Part shown: positions 52,209-58,692 of the stretch, in pieces
Layout of the letters: each line of letters begins with the position of its first letter
Numbering within the stretch: position 1 is the stretch's first letter
Assembly: GCA_037305845.1 (NCBI GenBank)
Contig: CP147778.1
Coordinates: forward strand, 1,856,001 to 1,920,000
Length of the DNA: 64,000 nt
Reading direction: 5' to 3'
DNA from: Candidatus Freyarchaeum deiterrae
GTDB taxonomy: Archaea; Asgardarchaeota; Jordiarchaeia; Jordiarchaeales; Jordiarchaeaceae
Program-made: the position numbers and the translations under genes
Notes under the pieces: generated by a model
Told to the model about the DNA's origin: nothing
What the model saw: only the letters and a program-made list of their open reading frames with translations
Databases searched by the model: none

Positions 52209-52883
52209 TTATTCATCAATCGGTTGCTTATTATCCGGTTTTATGATATTAGAAATGCTTTTAAGTTCTTCACGAATTTGTTCAATCTCTTCAGTTACAA
52301 AATTGATTTTTTCCTCTAATTTCCTATTCCACTCATAAACCTCTAATCCGATTCTATCTAAAGCAGTTGAATACGGCTCTTCGCCCCATTCCAAGTAATC
52401 AATAAAATTTTTAATTATCTTATCCTTCTCTAACAAAAGTTCGTACTCTAACGAGACAACCTCATCATCTTGAACTTGGAATATTTTAACTTCCGCATCG
52501 CCCGGACGCCCCGACATAATGAAATCATGTGGATCGACGACCAACGCTATACCCTGAGGGAACATTCCCTGAAGCCCAACTTGGGTTTCCACATCAATCG
52601 AAGAAAGAAAACAGCCGAACCCAGGATGGGAATGATACCAGCCTACAAGGTACTCACTTCTTCCCTGTCTCTCAATTTTCTCAGCAATAAGGGGCGCAAC
52701 AGTTGGCGCTAACTTCACGTGGCCTGGCGTACCAATCTGAGGCCCAGTGTCTGAATCAGTAACTTCAACCACATCACCTGTCAACTTTCCAATTAATACC
52801 CCTGCCACCTCTATTCCAGAGAATGATACACTATGCCTGAGAATCTTAGCGAGGGCTAAAGGATAAACCCTAACACTAACCAT
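52209..52883 (-). CDS. JAMM/MPN+ isopeptidase (Rpn11-like)
   Basis: EVAGVLIG, GWYHSHPGFGCFLSSIDVETQ, LVVDP. Confidence 0.93.
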   Translation of the reverse strand: MVSVRVYPLALAKILRHSVSFSGIEVAGVLIGKLTGDVVEVTDSDTGPQIGTPGHVKLAPTVAPLIAEKIERQGRSEYLVGWYHSHPGFGCFLSSIDVETQVGLQGMFPQGIALVVDPHDFIMSGRPGDAEVKIFQVQDDEVVSLEYELLLEKDKIIKNFIDYLEWGEEPYSTALDRIGLEVYEWNRKLEEKINFVTEEIEQIREELKSISNIIKPDNKQPIDE

Positions 52884-53090
52884 ATTAATTCACCACAAAA
52901 CAATCGAAGAATCAAGCACTAAACTTTACACTTAATTAGTTCGCGTATCAAAAGAAATTATCCCTTCCTATATCTGAGTTATCCGTCTATTTATTTCTCC
53001 CTCTTAAGAAGATTTTTTATTTCTCCCTTAATATAAAACTATGGTATTGATTGATACAAATAAGCTACCAAATCAAATGTTACATAAAAA

Positions 53091-53798
53091 ATGAGGAGAA
53101 ATCAGTTGTCTGGGAAGAACGTTTTACATGTATATTCCTGCTGTGATGTTGCCACCCCTGCAAAAATATCTAGTAAAATGTTTCAGGAAAAATACGATGC
53201 TGAAGTTGAATTCACAATTGGAATGCCCAATGAAATAATTCCCAAACTCGCAAGCACGCATGAAAGTGATGTCTTCACCTGCGGAGCGGCATACATAATG
53301 GATGAAGTGGAAAAAAGTGGTTTAATAACTAGACAGAACAGAAGAGTCCTAGGCTACAGAAGGTCATTAATATTAACACAAAAAAATAACCCCAAAAAAA
53401 TAAAATCTCTCACAGATCTGACAAAAAAGGACATAAAAATCGCTGTGTCAACTACAGGAAGCCTAAAGGGAGTTTGGGACGAAATCACCAGCAAAACTGG
53501 ACTAACAGAAAAAATACAGAAAAACATCACCCTATTCGCCGACGGATGCGGAGAACTATTAGGCTCAATTGTGCAAAAAAAAGTAGACGCTGCCTTCGGC
53601 TGGAATACCTATAAAGTTTTACACACAAAAGCTATTGATGCAGTTGAACTTTCCAAAGAAATACAAGTCTATAGAAGCACTCTAATAACAATTACCTCCT
53701 TCACGGAAAACAAAGAAACGGCGAACAAATTCATCAAATTTCTATTATCAAAAGAAGGAAAAAAAATATACACAAAATACGGATGGATAACCCCGTAA
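53091..53798 (+). CDS. ModA-like oxyanion substrate-binding domain protein
   Basis: KNNPKKIKSLTDL, VDAAFGW, A.KFIKFLLS.EGKKIYTKYGW. Confidence 0.75.
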   Translation: MRRNQLSGKNVLHVYSCCDVATPAKISSKMFQEKYDAEVEFTIGMPNEIIPKLASTHESDVFTCGAAYIMDEVEKSGLITRQNRRVLGYRRSLILTQKNNPKKIKSLTDLTKKDIKIAVSTTGSLKGVWDEITSKTGLTEKIQKNITLFADGCGELLGSIVQKKVDAAFGWNTYKVLHTKAIDAVELSKEIQVYRSTLITITSFTENKETANKFIKFLLSKEGKKIYTKYGWITP

Positions 53799-53945
53799 CT
53801 GAAACAAGCCCTCAAATAATATTAAAACAAGAAATCAAGTTACCTCTACTTAAGTCCTCTCCTTATGAGAAGACTTTAAATTGTTTATTCTCCCTTGATT
53901 ACATAATAAGTCAGAAATAAACTAACACCACGGGAGGTTCAACCT

Positions 53946-54191
53946 TTGATAGTGAGAGTGGTCCCGGCAATAGGCAATAGTACGCCGTTTGAGATGGAAG
54001 TTGGCATAGATGAGAAGGTAAAGTCGTTTAAGGAGAGAGTAGCTAAATCGATTTCGCTTCCTTCAAATGCGTTGACGCTTACGTGTAGAGGTATTGAATT
54101 ACAGAACGAGAACGCCACCTTGGGAAGCATAGGAATCCAGGATGGTGATAAAATATTCTATGTAAGTTCTGACATCGAAGGTGGTTTCTAA
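53946..54191 (+). CDS. Ubiquitin-like modifier precursor ending GG-F
   Basis: Beta-grasp pattern V...K..VA....LP...L.L...G.EL....TL...GIQDGD; C-terminus IEGGF; GGGAGG SD. Confidence 0.9.
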   Translation: MIVRVVPAIGNSTPFEMEVGIDEKVKSFKERVAKSISLPSNALTLTCRGIELQNENATLGSIGIQDGDKIFYVSSDIEGGF

Positions 54192-54299
54192 AAATACTTA
54201 ACTTGTCCTATTTCTCTGATTAAAAATTCTCTAGCGGCTTTTGATGAGTCGCAAGAACTTATTTTAACTATTACTAATGTTTCTCTGGGAGGTTCGTAA

Positions 54300-54779
54300 A
54301 CGTCTGCTCAACTTGATTCGGAGCGTTATTGGGCTAGACTCGCCTTGGAAGCGCAGCGAATGAGGAAGGAGGAGCCTAATTTTCATCCAGTGGATGGTAA
54401 GCTAACCCATTGGCGTGGAATAATATACGGCTTCGCTGGTGCACCCTATGAGGGTGGAATGTTTAAGGTAGAGATTAAAATTACTCGTGGCTTTCCTTTT
54501 GAACCGCCTCAGGTTTTGTGGCAAACTAGAATATGGCACCCTAACATTGCTTTCGGAGACCGGGCTCCGTTCTCGGTTTGTATAGCGATACTGGGGAGGG
54601 AGTGGAGACCTCAAACGAATATAGTTGGAATCATTGAATCTCTGAAGACCTTATTAACGAATCCCAATCCCGATAGTCCTCTTAACGCAGAAGCAGCTTA
54701 TCAGCAGCGACGCGAGCCGATGAAATTTCTTGAGAAAGCTAAAGAGTTTGTTTCAAATTACGCTAATAAGGGTTGGTAG
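54300..54779 (+). CDS. Ubiquitin-conjugating enzyme E2 (probable ACG start at 54300; ORF track TTG 54345)
   Basis: PYEGGMF, FPFEPP, IWHPNI...VCIAIL (catalytic Cys), PNPDSPLN. Confidence 0.93.
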   Translation, partial: TSAQLDSERYWARLALEAQRMRKEEPNFHPVDGKLTHWRGIIYGFAGAPYEGGMFKVEIKITRGFPFEPPQVLWQTRIWHPNIAFGDRAPFSVCIAILGREWRPQTNIVGIIESLKTLLTNPNPDSPLNAEAAYQQRREPMKFLEKAKEFVSNYANKGW

Positions 54780-54830
54780 AAAATTAGCTTTCAATAAATT
54801 TTTGGATAAAAATTCGATTGGGGTTTTGAT

Positions 54831-55982
54831 ATGGAGGATCGTTACCATAGACAAAAACTTGTGAACGTTATGGGTGTTGCCTGGGATCAGGATAAGCTAC
54901 TGAATTCTACTGCTTTGATTGCGGGTATGGGCGCCTTGGGTTGTGAGTCCGCCAAAAACCTAGCTTTGATGGGACTTAAAAAACTGATTATAATTGATAA
55001 CGATGTTGTGGAACTCTCCAACCTAAGTAGACAAATGTTATTCCGAGATGGGGATATCGGTTCACCGAAAGTTGCGGCCGCTGAGCGTAATTTGATGGAG
55101 ATGAATCCAAATATAGAAGTGGAAAAATATTACGAAAGCATAGAGAACATTCCCATAGAAAAATATCAGGAGGCAGACATTTTTCTGAGTGGTCTGGATA
55201 ATTTTGAGGGTCGCCGCTACCTAAACTCGATAGCGATTACTCTAAACAAACCATTTGTCGACGCGGGAACACATGTTTTCTTTGGCCATGTGCGGGTAAT
55301 CATTCCCCGTGTAACGCCCTGTTATGAGTGCTATCCCCCTAAAGAGAAGCAGAGGGTTTGGTGTTCCCTTCGAAGACGCAAACCCAGCGATTTACTCAAT
55401 GAATTGAAGGAATACAGGATAAAAGGTTTAACAACTGGAATTGTAGACGAACTATTTTCAAGGGGCTACAAAACCGAACTTGATTTAAAATATGCCAAGC
55501 TGAAAGACTTAACCTCCATTCCAGGGATTTCTGAGAATCTGGCAAAAAAGATCCAAGAGAAGATAGCTCCAAAATTACCCGCCATTCTAACCACAAATGC
55601 CATAATTGCGGGAATTCAATCCCAAGAAGCAATAAAAGTTCTGCTCGGCTTCCCCAGAACCGCGGAGATGTTCAGATACAACGGACTCAGCGGGGGCCTC
55701 GACTACCTAAACAGAGAGCGAAGAGCTGACTGCTGGCTCTGCGGGACGGGAGAAGAAGCTACACAAATCAATGTTGATTCAAACTCCACAGTCTACGACC
55801 TCAAGGTACAGATATCCCAAAGATACGCAATACCCGACCCCGAAATAGCGTACAAGGAATACTTTCCCCTAGGCGAAGAACTCAGACTCAAAGATGTCGG
55901 AGCGAAATCTGGCGAAAACATATTCATAATATCGAGACATATAGCAACACCTAAAACGCTTAAGTTAAACCTCATAAAATAG
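54831..55982 (+). CDS. Ubiquitin-activating enzyme E1 (ThiF core + HhH insertion + C-terminal ubiquitin-fold domain)
   Basis: GMGALGCE, DNDVVELSNLSRQ, GLDN...R, TPCYEC, CWLC. Confidence 0.92.
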   Translation: MEDRYHRQKLVNVMGVAWDQDKLLNSTALIAGMGALGCESAKNLALMGLKKLIIIDNDVVELSNLSRQMLFRDGDIGSPKVAAAERNLMEMNPNIEVEKYYESIENIPIEKYQEADIFLSGLDNFEGRRYLNSIAITLNKPFVDAGTHVFFGHVRVIIPRVTPCYECYPPKEKQRVWCSLRRRKPSDLLNELKEYRIKGLTTGIVDELFSRGYKTELDLKYAKLKDLTSIPGISENLAKKIQEKIAPKLPAILTTNAIIAGIQSQEAIKVLLGFPRTAEMFRYNGLSGGLDYLNRERRADCWLCGTGEEATQINVDSNSTVYDLKVQISQRYAIPDPEIAYKEYFPLGEELRLKDVGAKSGENIFIISRHIATPKTLKLNLIK

Positions 55983-56020
55983 ATGAGTTCTAGTGAAGCT
56001 TAATGCTTCAATTTCTAAAT

Positions 56021-56593
56021 CTAAATTGGCGTATCACAAAGCACACAGGTTCTTTTATACCCTCGACTTATCCAGTTTTCAAAACAGTTTCTGTGATAAA
56101 GGCTCAGACATCTAGGATTTCTACACCGAATAGTGTTTTCATAATCTTGTACAGTAATTTTGTCCAAACATATAACACAAGTAGGTGGGGCAAAATTATT
56201 GAAAAATTCTAAAATAGATAAAGCGACTTCAAAAAGATGTCTATCAGGGTTCCAATTCCTGAGAGAAGGAAGATTTCCTAAATAGTTTTCCAGATTTAAA
56301 TCCATGTCCTCCCCACCGCTAGATATTTCTATTCTCGGTTTCATCTTTGGAAACTCTTCGGGAAGAGTTAGTTTAATAACTAAAACTTTTCCATAAAGTC
56401 TGGGTTTCGAGTATCTTGAGAAGGCAACCATTAGTTTGTATTCTCTGAGACTGGGAGTGTCCCTTAGAATTCTAATCGACACATACTCCGATCCGCTCAG
56501 AAGTACAGGTGAATTTTCCTTCATTCTTTGGAGTTCTTCAGCAAGTCTTTTTGAAACACTCTTATCCTTATCAATATCTCCCCTTTTTTCCAA
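56021..56593 (-). CDS. RWD/UBC-like domain + C4HC3 RING, putative E3 ligase (FANCL-like architecture)
   Basis: LPEEFPKMKP, WNP; CVIC...CRNPRC...YHRNC...W...CVLC. Confidence 0.75.
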   Translation of the reverse strand: MEKRGDIDKDKSVSKRLAEELQRMKENSPVLLSGSEYVSIRILRDTPSLREYKLMVAFSRYSKPRLYGKVLVIKLTLPEEFPKMKPRIEISSGGEDMDLNLENYLGNLPSLRNWNPDRHLFEVALSILEFFNNFAPPTCVICLDKITVQDYENTIRCRNPRCLSLYHRNCFENWISRGYKRTCVLCDTPI

Positions 56594-56871
56594 GACTGAC
56601 GCCCGCCTTGAATACGTTCATTAAATGATTCATCTTCATCGGGCTTACGTGCAAAAGCCTTTCTTTAAATGATTCCTCACAACCGAAAAAGTTGATTAAG
56701 AGGCTCCTCAGAAATCTCCAGGTTTAATGCCTTTGAGTTCACGTTCTAGTTTTTTGAAGAAAGGCTCAGGCTCGTTCATACCTCTATTGTTTTCATTAAT
56801 TTTAATGATAATGGATATAATCTTAAACCAAGACTATTCTACGCTTTTCAATTTTTTTAGCTTAAATGTTT

Positions 56872-57231
56872 TTACCTCATTGCATGTCTTGTGTATGCGA
56901 CTCCTATAGGTGTCAGGTCTACTGTGTTTCCTTCTGCGGCAATAAAGAAGATGCCTTTGAGGAATTGAAGATGGAAACCTAATGTTTTTTCATCTAGATT
57001 CAAACGGTTTGCTATTTCCTCTATTGTTAGAGCTTGATCCTTGAGCATTGTCAGAATTTCTCGCCTAATTGGATTTTGCAAGGCATGAAGAGCTCTCCTG
57101 TGCGCCTCGGTTGGGTCTCCTACCACTCCGCTCTCATCTAATTTTTGCTTCCAAGCATCAAGTTCCCCGTCACTCATTTCTCTATAATTTTTCTTTCCCA
57201 AACAAATCACCATGTTCCTGATATTATCCAA
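56872..57231 (-). CDS. ArsR-like winged-helix protein
   Basis: ALQNPIRREILTML....TIEEIA.......LGFHLQFL. Confidence 0.75.
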   Translation of the reverse strand: MDNIRNMVICLGKKNYREMSDGELDAWKQKLDESGVVGDPTEAHRRALHALQNPIRREILTMLKDQALTIEEIANRLNLDEKTLGFHLQFLKGIFFIAAEGNTVDLTPIGVAYTRHAMR

Positions 57232-57608
57232 AATACATGAACCAATTATTCAAGTAATTCCTCCAAAGATGTTACAATGTTTATCCAATTTCCCACTCAA
57301 AAAGCCCAAAGCCCATCGAAACTAACGAATTTACGTCTTCTTATCTTACATATTAATTTATTGAATTTACTATATTTTCTTACAGTACTACAGCAGAATA
57401 TAGTATTTCAGATTATTGACATATGCGCAGCATAAATGACTAGTCACGGAAATCGATGAAAGATTGGACGAATAATCACGAGTACTAATTTATAATATAA
57501 TCTCAGAAGAGGCGAGTGCAGACGTTAATTTTTTCTTATGAAACTGGAAGTATTTTTAAACTCTGTTTTTATCTTTTTTATTAGCATTTTATATGGTGTT
57601 TTTTAGGA

Positions 57609-58349
57609 GTGGTTCTAATGAGTGAGCACTATCTGGGATGGATTCTGAGAAATTTGGTCTTACCTGCGTTTCTTGAATTGAAAAATGAAAAATTCGATAC
57701 TCAGTTTGGTGAAATACCCAAAGATATGCTCGCGAATGTTAAAACCGTAGAGCTCAGAAAAGGTAGCAAAAGCGTTGCGAGAAAACATTTTATCACTATA
57801 AGTGAGAGACTGAGAGGATGGAGTGAAGACGAGGTTGCCGCGGTTATGGCTCACGAATTGGGACATCTGGTAAATCGAGGTTCTCTATTCAGAAATTTTC
57901 GTGACGAAGAACTGGGGGCATCAACGCAAGCTATCTCTAGAGGATTCCTAAATGGCTACAAAAAGATTTTTTCAAGATTTTGTAAAGAACCTTGTTGGGT
58001 TATTACTAGGACTGGAAACGGGTTTGAGCTTAGGAGTGAATGGAAACAACTAGGAGGAATTGGTTGTCAAGCGGGTTCTGGCGTTTTCCACACATATTGC
58101 CCCTTCGCTGAAGGTTTAAATCTCACCTCTATTGCTTATCTTCATCCTTTACTGTTTCCAACAAGCGGAATTTGTGGACTATGTAAAACAGTTCTAAATG
58201 ATGAAGTAACAACTTGGAAGTGTGAAACTTGTTCGGTTCTTTTTCATGAGGGTTGTATAAATGTTTATGTTCGGCTAAATGGTAAATGTCCCACTTGTGG
58301 AAAATTCGCTATTTTTCAAAAATCCGATCTAAATAACCGCTCCGTCTAG
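57609..58349 (+). CDS. HEXXH zinc metalloprotease domain fused to a C4HC3 RING
   Basis: VMAHELGHL; CGLC...CETC...FHEGC...Y...CPTC. Confidence 0.72.
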   Translation: MVLMSEHYLGWILRNLVLPAFLELKNEKFDTQFGEIPKDMLANVKTVELRKGSKSVARKHFITISERLRGWSEDEVAAVMAHELGHLVNRGSLFRNFRDEELGASTQAISRGFLNGYKKIFSRFCKEPCWVITRTGNGFELRSEWKQLGGIGCQAGSGVFHTYCPFAEGLNLTSIAYLHPLLFPTSGICGLCKTVLNDEVTTWKCETCSVLFHEGCINVYVRLNGKCPTCGKFAIFQKSDLNNRSV

Positions 58350-58353
58350 GTCG

Positions 58354-58578
58354 CTAATCTCTTATTTTAACTTCACGTCCACACAGGGGGCATTTTTTAG
58401 AGTTTCTGGAACTCATCCAGTTTTTGAGTTCTTCCATGTGCATCATTTGGCGGCATTGCGTGCACTGATACACTTTTCCGCGGTCTTTAACTGGGTCGAT
58501 TTCTAGGGAGCAGATTAAGCAGTTCCATTTCCATTCTCCTAGGAAACGCTTAGTTAAAGTAATGTATCTTTCGCTCAT
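58354..58578 (-). CDS. Stand-alone RING-variant zinc finger protein
   Basis: CLIC...CTQC...H..E..W...CPLC. Confidence 0.7.
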   Translation of the reverse strand: MSERYITLTKRFLGEWKWNCLICSLEIDPVKDRGKVYQCTQCRQMMHMEELKNWMSSRNSKKCPLCGREVKIRD

Positions 58579-58692
58579 TTTTCTTTCTCCGAGAGCCTTA
58601 GAAATATTTTAGTATCTCCAATGTATAGTTTTCAACGAATGTTATTTAAAGTGTTTTCTGGGAGACAGTGTCCTCTATAAGGGGTTTGTATT

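What the first reader, a model, noticed from the sequence alone, without database searches (positions are those of the whole stretch)
55360..55580. E1 carries a RadA-N-like helix-hairpin-helix domain next to its presumed catalytic Cys
After TPCYEC...VWC the sequence IKGLTTGIVDELFSRGYKT..DL..A....LTSIPGISENLAKKI is a tandem HhH pattern, sitting where eukaryotic E1s have the catalytic-Cys domain. An E1 with a putative DNA-binding module suggests activation on DNA or chromatin.
Basis: partly seen in the sequence, partly recalled or inferred. Interest (0 to 1): 0.7.

Follow-up and report, generated by a model that had tools for sequence, protein, structure and literature searches.

The report
Archaeal E1 with borrowed helicase domain
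The ubiquitin-activating enzyme of this Asgard archaeon carries its catalytic cysteine beside a small domain of the helix-hairpin-helix type, apparently borrowed from a DNA helicase but stripped of its DNA-gripping residues, so it most likely serves as a protein scaffold rather than making the enzyme DNA-dependent.

Summary
Observation confirmed. Residues 184-246 of the E1 (54831-55982, Jordarchaeum-type Asgard archaeon) form a five-helix (HhH)2 domain right after catalytic Cys178 (Pfam HHH_5 E 2e-5; model pLDDT 81; top folds Rad51/RadA-N). It is family-wide: all 120 homologues have it, including the characterised Caldiarchaeum subterraneum E1, where papers treated it as a eukaryote-type cysteine domain. 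It shows no profile likeness to the Uba3-type cysteine domain, which occurs in 219 of 400 Asgard genomes. The closest donor tested is Hel308 domain 5 (HHalign 97%), ahead of archaeal RadA-N (43%). DNA binding is poorly supported: Hel308's RAR arginines are absent in 102 of 102 variants, the Rad51 Lys-Gly-Lys triad is complete in 1 of 102, net charge is near zero, hairpins are the least conserved part, and the C. subterraneum enzyme worked in a buffer listing no DNA. Best reading: an alternative catalytic-cysteine domain with a protein-contact role (0.65). Weak DNA tethering in Jordarchaeum is not excluded (0.15): hairpin glycines are kept there and the operon sits beside an SMC cluster. The scan noted this architecture before in another genome (e1-5396742). 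New variant of a known system.

The parts
54831..55982 (+). Ubiquitin-activating enzyme E1, 383 aa: adenylation domain, HhH-type cysteine domain, C-terminal ubiquitin-fold domain (Uba3-like layout)
   Evidence: Pfam ThiF E 6e-59; Foldseek best match Uba3, TM 0.74; 38% identical over its length to C. subterraneum E1
55320..55331 (+). First zinc-binding CxxC (C164, C167); partner pair C301/C304 at 55731-55742
   Evidence: C164, C167 invariant in 120 homologues, C301/C304 at least 90%
55362..55379 (+). Presumed catalytic Cys178 and following S/T-L-R-R-R motif
   Evidence: Aligns with the Uba1 catalytic Cys; C178 and L180 invariant, R181-R183 about 90%
55380..55568 (+). Five-helix (HhH)2 domain, residues 184-246, serving as the cysteine domain; closest to Hel308 domain 5
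   Evidence: 60-63 residues long in all homologues
55419..55448 (+). First hairpin (I197-T201) and the position of Hel308's RAR DNA-binding motif, here I204-V205-D206 (degenerate)
   Evidence: HHalign register; column counts
55461..55514 (+). Connector region 211-228 with K214, T215, D218, K220, Y221: the conserved face of the domain
   Evidence: 72% of columns invariant in 12 Jordarchaeum-type sequences against about 30% in the hairpins; K214 and D218 invariant family-wide; Y221 aligns with human Rad51 Tyr54
55518..55532 (+). Second hairpin I230-P-G-I-S234; Gly232 kept in Jordarchaeum, mostly lost in Caldarchaeales
   Evidence: G232 in 11 of 11 against 9 of 91 variants
55746..55979 (+). C-terminal ubiquitin-fold domain (E2-recruiting by analogy to Uba3)
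   Evidence: Pfam ubiquitin hits 101 of 120 homologues; strand pattern in model
53946..54191 (+). Ubiquitin precursor ending Gly-Gly-Phe
   Evidence: Pfam ubiquitin E 4e-8
54300..54779 (+). E2 conjugating enzyme, apparently starting at a conserved ACG
   Evidence: Pfam UQ_con E 3e-32; ACG after a Shine-Dalgarno-like run and in-frame TAA in all 5 other Jordarchaeum-type loci
52209..52883 (-). JAMM/Rpn11-like protease, divergent from the operon as in Caldarchaeales
   Evidence: Pfam JAB E 4e-19; synteny
56021..56593 (-). RING protein with an N-terminal domain (candidate E3)
   Evidence: Pfam zf-RING_2 E 1e-5, FANCL_C E 0.002; conserved position in Jordarchaeum
57609..63700 (.). Neighbouring peptidase-RING, solo RING, AAA ATPase, SMC and two downstream genes (kleisin and kite labels taken from earlier notes, not tested here)
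   Evidence: Pfam for the first three; same order in the four long Jordarchaeum-type loci and, up to the contig end, in a fifth; no SMC match within 10 kb of any Caldarchaeales operon fetched

Best explanation
The insert is this enzyme family's catalytic-cysteine domain. An ancestral short-loop E1 took up a small (HhH)2 module, most like domain 5 of the helicase Hel308, immediately behind the catalytic Cys. The module kept its fold but lost the residues that bind DNA. It works like the cysteine domain of Uba1/2/3: a mobile helical body on the two crossover linkers that carries Cys178 between the ubiquitin-adenylate and the E2 cysteine and offers a protein-contact surface (the conserved K214-T215-x-x-D218-x-K220-Y221 face) to the adenylation core or the E2. 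Shown: position, fold, family-wide retention, loss of DNA motifs, lack of detectable likeness to the Uba3-type domain. Inferred: the donor, the movement and the contact partner.
For: Kept at 60-63 residues in all 120 homologues although hairpin glycines survive only in Jordarchaeum-type copies and P0028. Hel308 arginines R-x-R-x-R are basic in 30 of 30 donors but 0 of 102 E1 variants have both RAR positions basic; second Gly of G-h-G is Thr in 11 of 11 Jordarchaeum variants; mean net charge +6.8 in Hel308 D5 against +0.5 and -0.2 in E1s. Rad51 DNA triad K40/G65/K73 (PMC1964548) complete in 1 of 102. Within Jordarchaeum the hairpins are least conserved (0.31, 0.29) and the connector as conserved as the enzyme core (0.72); its Tyr221 aligns with Rad51 Tyr54, which stacks on Phe195 of a neighbouring protomer (PMC10435448). 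Three interchangeable states occupy the same slot: short loop, Uba3-type, HhH-type. The C. subterraneum orthologue is active in a buffer listing no DNA and auto-ubiquitylates a lysine in this domain. HhH_5 is a mobile module in this genome: 15 matches over the cut-off, including fusions to ribosomal proteins.
Against: No contact between the domain and E2 or the core was shown: no model coordinates or interfaces were available. Net charge is a weak test, since archaeal RadA-N averages -1.6 and still helps bind dsDNA. K214, T215 and D218 are also typical of Hel308 D5, so they may be fold residues rather than a contact face. The window's own copy keeps G232 and K240 of the Rad51 triad and invariant K214/K220/K223/K225 plus R181-R183. 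The no-DNA assay concerns the hairpin-degenerate C. subterraneum enzyme and did not test stimulation.
Confidence: 0.65

Rival explanations
1. In Jordarchaeum the domain still binds DNA weakly through the second hairpin and nearby lysines, tethering or stimulating the E1 on the chromosome, where it serves the neighbouring RING proteins and the SMC complex. Caldarchaeales lost this role.
For: G199 in 10 of 11 and G232 in 11 of 11 Jordarchaeum variants; invariant basic residues R181-183, K214, K220, K223, K225, K244, K248; the intact-hairpin version co-occurs with a conserved link to RING genes and an AAA-SMC operon, while the decayed version has no SMC nearby; top fold matches are mostly DNA-binding domains.
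Against: RAR and the second hairpin Gly absent, Rad51 K40 is Glu in 11 of 11, K73 position basic in 4 of 11; hairpins are the most variable part even within the genus; the SMC link is one genus, so one evolutionary event; hairpin G-hydrophobic pairs are also needed for the fold itself (PMC1964548).
Confidence: 0.15
2. The domain is an adaptor for a partner outside the E1-E2 core, for example pairing with another HhH or SAM-like domain as in XPF-ERCC1 or NusA-alphaCTD, or binding a RING protein of the operon.
Against: No co-occurring HhH partner is conserved beside the operon in both lineages among the neighbours tested; the purified C. subterraneum cascade needed no extra factor.
Confidence: 0.12
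3. The domain is a passive, thermostable spacer that only shields the cysteine loop and makes no specific contact.
For: Short-loop E1s with the same ubiquitin-fold domain and operon partners exist without any such domain, one in this genome.
Against: Invariant polar residues K214 and D218 and near-invariant K220, Y221 across proteins only 36-46% identical; fixed length.
Confidence: 0.08

Closest known systems
Candidatus Caldiarchaeum subterraneum E1-like enzyme CSUB_C1476 (Nunoura 2011, PMC3082918; Hennell James 2017, PMC5654768)
   Same: Orthologue, 38% identical end to end; same insert, same JAMM / Ub-E2-E1 / RING layout. [quoted passage not shown]
   Different: Those papers took the insert as eukaryote-type and modelled it on Uba3 (3GZN); neither mentions HhH. 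Its hairpin glycines are lost, which hides the HhH pattern; the window's copy keeps them and sits beside an SMC operon.
Uba3 (NEDD8 E1 catalytic subunit) and Asgard E1s with a Uba3-type cysteine domain
   Same: Same overall architecture (Foldseek TM 0.74); helical domain of similar length in the same slot; Asgard Uba3-type E1s group with the HhH-type E1s on the tree (99/94).
   Different: No profile likeness between the two cysteine domains (HHalign at most 2%, limited to the flanking Pro-Ala), whereas a Helarchaeota E1 matches Uba3 through the whole domain at E 2.4e-7.
Hel308/Hjm helicase domain 5 (HhH domain with RAR motif)
   Same: Best profile match: HHalign 97%, E 3e-11 for Jordarchaeum, 93% for Caldarchaeales alone; 6 of the 10 best non-E1 hits in Asgard genomes; Atlas models TM 0.68, rmsd 2.2-2.3.
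   Different: G-h-G-R-x-R-A-R motif lost; neutral instead of strongly basic.
RadA/Rad51 N-terminal (HhH)2 domain
   Same: Top Foldseek and VIA matches; Tyr221 = Tyr54, Gly232 = Gly65, Lys240 = Lys73 in the alignment.
   Different: Weaker profile match to archaeal RadA-N (43-75%); Lys40 is Glu207; triad complete in 1 of 102 variants.

Membership tests
Archaeal eukaryote-like ubiquitin E1 (C. subterraneum type) | ThiF-type adenylation domain with GxG loop and zinc CxxC pairs | tested here: met
   Pfam ThiF E 6e-59; invariant columns
Archaeal eukaryote-like ubiquitin E1 (C. subterraneum type) | Catalytic Cys after the first zinc pair | tested here: met
   C178 aligns with the Uba1 Cys, invariant in 120
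Archaeal eukaryote-like ubiquitin E1 (C. subterraneum type) | C-terminal ubiquitin-fold domain | tested here: met
   Ubiquitin Pfam in 101 of 120 homologues; full-length alignment to CSUB E1
Archaeal eukaryote-like ubiquitin E1 (C. subterraneum type) | Operon with ubiquitin, E2, RING and JAMM genes | tested here: met
Archaeal eukaryote-like ubiquitin E1 (C. subterraneum type) | ATP-dependent ubiquitin thioester formation | not testable with these tools
   Activity shown only for the orthologue (PMC5654768)
(HhH)2 / Pfam HHH_5 domain | Two helix-hairpin-helix units joined by a connector helix | tested here: met
   Models and fold matches
(HhH)2 / Pfam HHH_5 domain | Pfam HHH_5 gathering score of 27 bits | tested here: inconclusive
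   25.4 bits, E 2e-5 for this copy; best homologue E 1.1e-6
(HhH)2 / Pfam HHH_5 domain | Gly plus hydrophobic residue in both hairpins | tested here: met
   G199-L200 and G232-I233; 10 of 11 and 11 of 11 in Jordarchaeum, mostly lost in Caldarchaeales
DNA-binding HhH (Hel308 domain 5) | G-h-G hairpin followed by the RAR ssDNA-binding motif | tested here: not met
   Reads G-L-T and I-V-D; 0 of 102 variants basic at both Arg positions, against 30 of 30 in Hel308; motif cited in PMC4671958
RadA/Rad51 N-terminal domain | dsDNA-binding Lys-Gly-Lys triad (human K40, G65, K73) | tested here: not met
   E207, G232, K240 here (two of three); complete in 1 of 102 variants
DNA-binding HhH (any) | Measured nucleic-acid binding | not testable with these tools
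   Needs EMSA or anisotropy
Eukaryote-type (Uba3) catalytic-cysteine domain | Sequence-profile homology across the domain | tested here: not met
   HHalign at most 2% against 30 Asgard Uba3-type domains; no Uba3 match at E up to 10 for residues 165-300, with a positive control at E 2.4e-7
Eukaryote-type (Uba3) catalytic-cysteine domain | Structural superposition on the Uba3/Uba2/Uba1 domain | tested here: inconclusive
   Only the best 50 rows are shown; no direct pairwise superposition was possible

The most novel reading that the evidence does not exclude
The Jordarchaeum E1 is a DNA-tethered or DNA-stimulated ubiquitin-activating enzyme that feeds RING ligases of the adjacent SMC operon, and the HhH-type cysteine domain is the older state that the Uba3-type domain of Asgard archaea and eukaryotes later replaced. 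The second half alone is more likely (about 0.3): the best tree nests the Uba3-type E1s inside the HhH-type ones (98/88), but a single HhH clade is not rejected (AU p 0.054; p 0.30 in the smaller set).
Probability: 0.1. Interest if true: 0.85.

Novelty: new variant of a known kind. Interest (0 to 1): 0.5.

Why it matters
The C. subterraneum cascade is the standard model for the ancestor of eukaryotic ubiquitin signalling, and its E1 was assumed to have a eukaryote-type cysteine domain. The evidence here says it has an apparently unrelated domain recruited from a DNA-repair protein, while the true Uba3-type domain is found in Asgard E1s. Archaeal E1s therefore show three states of this slot (loop, HhH, Uba3-type), which makes the origin and job of the E1 cysteine domain testable by domain swaps in a system that already works in vitro. 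If the Jordarchaeum copy did bind DNA it would be an E1 targeted to the chromosome, which I know of in no other system.

Tried and rejected
Complex prediction, two E1 copies plus E2: weak support, score 0.47 against best control 0.00; the mark was reached by 58 of 80 solved complexes and 2 of 110 mismatches, but at 0.60 or under by only 7 of the 80 and by both mismatches; runs agree in at least 90% of contacts, partner pLDDT at least 85; no interface was given and E1-E2 is a textbook pair, so it says nothing on the HhH domain and is not used as evidence. RadA-N as donor: weaker than Hel308 D5 in profile tests (100 of 102 variants score higher on the Hel308 profile), though donor profiles came from Asgard genomes only, eukaryotic Rad51-N and bacterial alpha-CTD lead the PDB sequence search, and other mobile HhH modules were not tested. 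Remote homology with the Uba3-type domain, suggested by a look-alike helix-hairpin-helix near its end: not supported. No E1 appeared in the top 50 fold matches of the isolated domain; absence there is not evidence. Profile search of 1.84 billion representatives found only three E1 clusters plus multi-HhH repeat proteins. Literature searches for an HhH cysteine domain in archaeal E1s found nothing relevant; the library lacks most subscription papers. The primary Hel308 and HhH papers were not held. The identity of the auto-ubiquitylated lysine in the C. subterraneum domain is not given in the held text. The idea that the insert is unique to this genome or genus was rejected.

Full report

Distribution. 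The domain is not a local insert. All 120 homologues have it at 60-63 residues. It is in 6 of 6 genomes of the window's genus and no other of 400 Asgard genomes searched, and in 60 of 401 genomes sampled from the phylum of an Aigarchaeota genome; the named loci are Caldarchaeales and unclassified Nitrososphaeria. The family includes the C. subterraneum E1 (P0131, 38% identical). Nunoura et al. [quoted passage not shown] (PMC5654768) modelled it on Uba3; neither mentions HhH. The hairpin glycines are kept only in Jordarchaeum-type copies and one unplaced metagenomic protein, which explains why the fold was missed.

Origin. A profile of the domain picks Hel308 domain 5 as its commonest non-E1 match in Asgard genomes, over nearly the whole profile. 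With 30 Hel308 and 30 RadA sequences, HHalign gives 97% (E 3e-11) against 43% for Jordarchaeum and 93% against 75% for Caldarchaeales alone. The Atlas search also returns Hel308-like helicases at TM 0.68. HhH_5 is mobile in this genome, with 15 matches over the cut-off including ribosomal protein fusions, so the donor is 'most like Hel308 domain 5 of those tested', not proven.

Relation to the eukaryotic domain. Archaeal E1s fall into three states at this slot. A short basic loop of about 30 residues occurs in many Asgard E1s, including a paralogue in this genome. A Uba3-type domain occurs in 219 of 400 Asgard genomes and matches Uba3 through the domain at E 2.4e-7. The HhH type shows no profile likeness to it (at most 2%). 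On trees built without the domain's columns, HhH-type and Uba3-type E1s group together against short-loop ones (100/95; 99/94). The larger tree nests the Uba3-type clade inside the HhH type as sister to Jordarchaeum (98/88), but one HhH clade is not rejected (AU p 0.054; 0.30). The order of events is open; eukaryotic sequences were not in the trees and the MoeB root is long-branched.

Does it bind DNA? Hel308 domain 5 contacts ssDNA at a surface that includes the RAR motif (PMC4671958). That motif and the G-h-G hairpin before it are near-invariant in the 30 Hel308 sequences; in the E1 they read G-L-T-T-G-I-V-D, and none of 102 variants has both arginine positions basic. RadA/Rad51 uses a Lys-Gly-Lys triad for dsDNA (PMC1964548); here it is E207, G232, K240, and complete in 1 of 102 variants. 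Net charge averages +0.5 and -0.2 against +6.8 for Hel308, though RadA-N is also slightly acidic, so this test is weak. Among 12 Jordarchaeum-type sequences about 30% of hairpin columns are invariant against 72% of the connector, equal to the enzyme core. The connector holds K214, T215, D218, K220 and Y221, conserved family-wide; Y221 aligns with Rad51 Tyr54, a protein-protein stacking residue. The C. subterraneum enzyme ran the cascade in a buffer that lists no DNA. For DNA binding: the Jordarchaeum copies keep both hairpin glycines and several invariant lysines, and only they lie beside a conserved RING / AAA / SMC cluster; that is a single genus and so one event.

Mechanism and verdict. Most likely (0.65) the module is an alternative catalytic-cysteine domain: a mobile helical body that carries Cys178 between the adenylate and the E2 and uses its connector face for protein contact. 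Position, fold, retention and motif loss are shown; movement and partner are inferred from Uba1/2/3 (established knowledge). Rivals are weak DNA tethering in Jordarchaeum (0.15), an adaptor for an outside partner (0.12) and a passive spacer (0.08). The enzyme is a member of a known family; the domain assignment is, as far as the held literature shows, undescribed. An earlier agent of this scan reached a similar architecture reading on another genome (e1-5396742), seen only after my own tests; the Hel308 donor, the motif loss and the three-state comparison were worked out here. New variant of a known kind; interest 0.5.

Noticed in passing
window 54281-54320: The E2 gene seems to start at ACG (54300), right after an in-frame TAA and a Shine-Dalgarno-like run; the same ACG is present in all five other Jordarchaeum-type loci, so it is a conserved non-standard start rather than a sequencing error.
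   Followed up: partly
L093:10001-11239, L097, L180-L210: E1s with a Uba3-type catalytic-cysteine domain are widespread in Asgard archaea (219 of 400 genomes; Uba3 match E 2.4e-7); a few are fused in 730-990 aa frames (L187-L190). One paper search found no description.
   Followed up: partly
L001:8077-10570 (G000 about 1985077-1987570): A second RING / ubiquitin / E2 / E1 cluster in this genome, whose E1 has only a short cysteine loop.
   Followed up: partly
window 52209-63700: The whole JAMM, ModA-like, Ub, E2, E1, RING, peptidase-RING, RING, AAA, SMC block keeps its order in Jordarchaeum-type genomes; Caldarchaeales keep JAMM/Ub/E2/E1 and often RING genes but show no SMC match nearby.
   Followed up: partly
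G000:C1:2053758-2054657 and 1491830-1492621: Proteins that look like ribosomal L13e and L32e carry HhH_5 domains (two and one); family names are from my reading of the sequence, not tested.
   Followed up: no
L212:2067-3023 (P0062): An HhH-type E1 of 318 aa without the C-terminal ubiquitin-fold domain, next to a roadblock gene and not in a Ub-E2 operon; sister to the Jordarchaeum copies on the tree.
   Followed up: no
L209 (G119): One genome of the window's genus holds both an HhH-type and a divergent Uba3-type E1; contamination of the assembly was not excluded.
   Followed up: no
G000:C1:2323552-2324517, 1520672-1521619, 2531141-2532289: Two close RadA copies (79% identical) and a third RadA-like protein with an HhH N-terminus.
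   Followed up: no
L012, L013: Open frames of about 4100 aa in two Asgard genomes with many degenerate HhH-like repeats.
   Followed up: no
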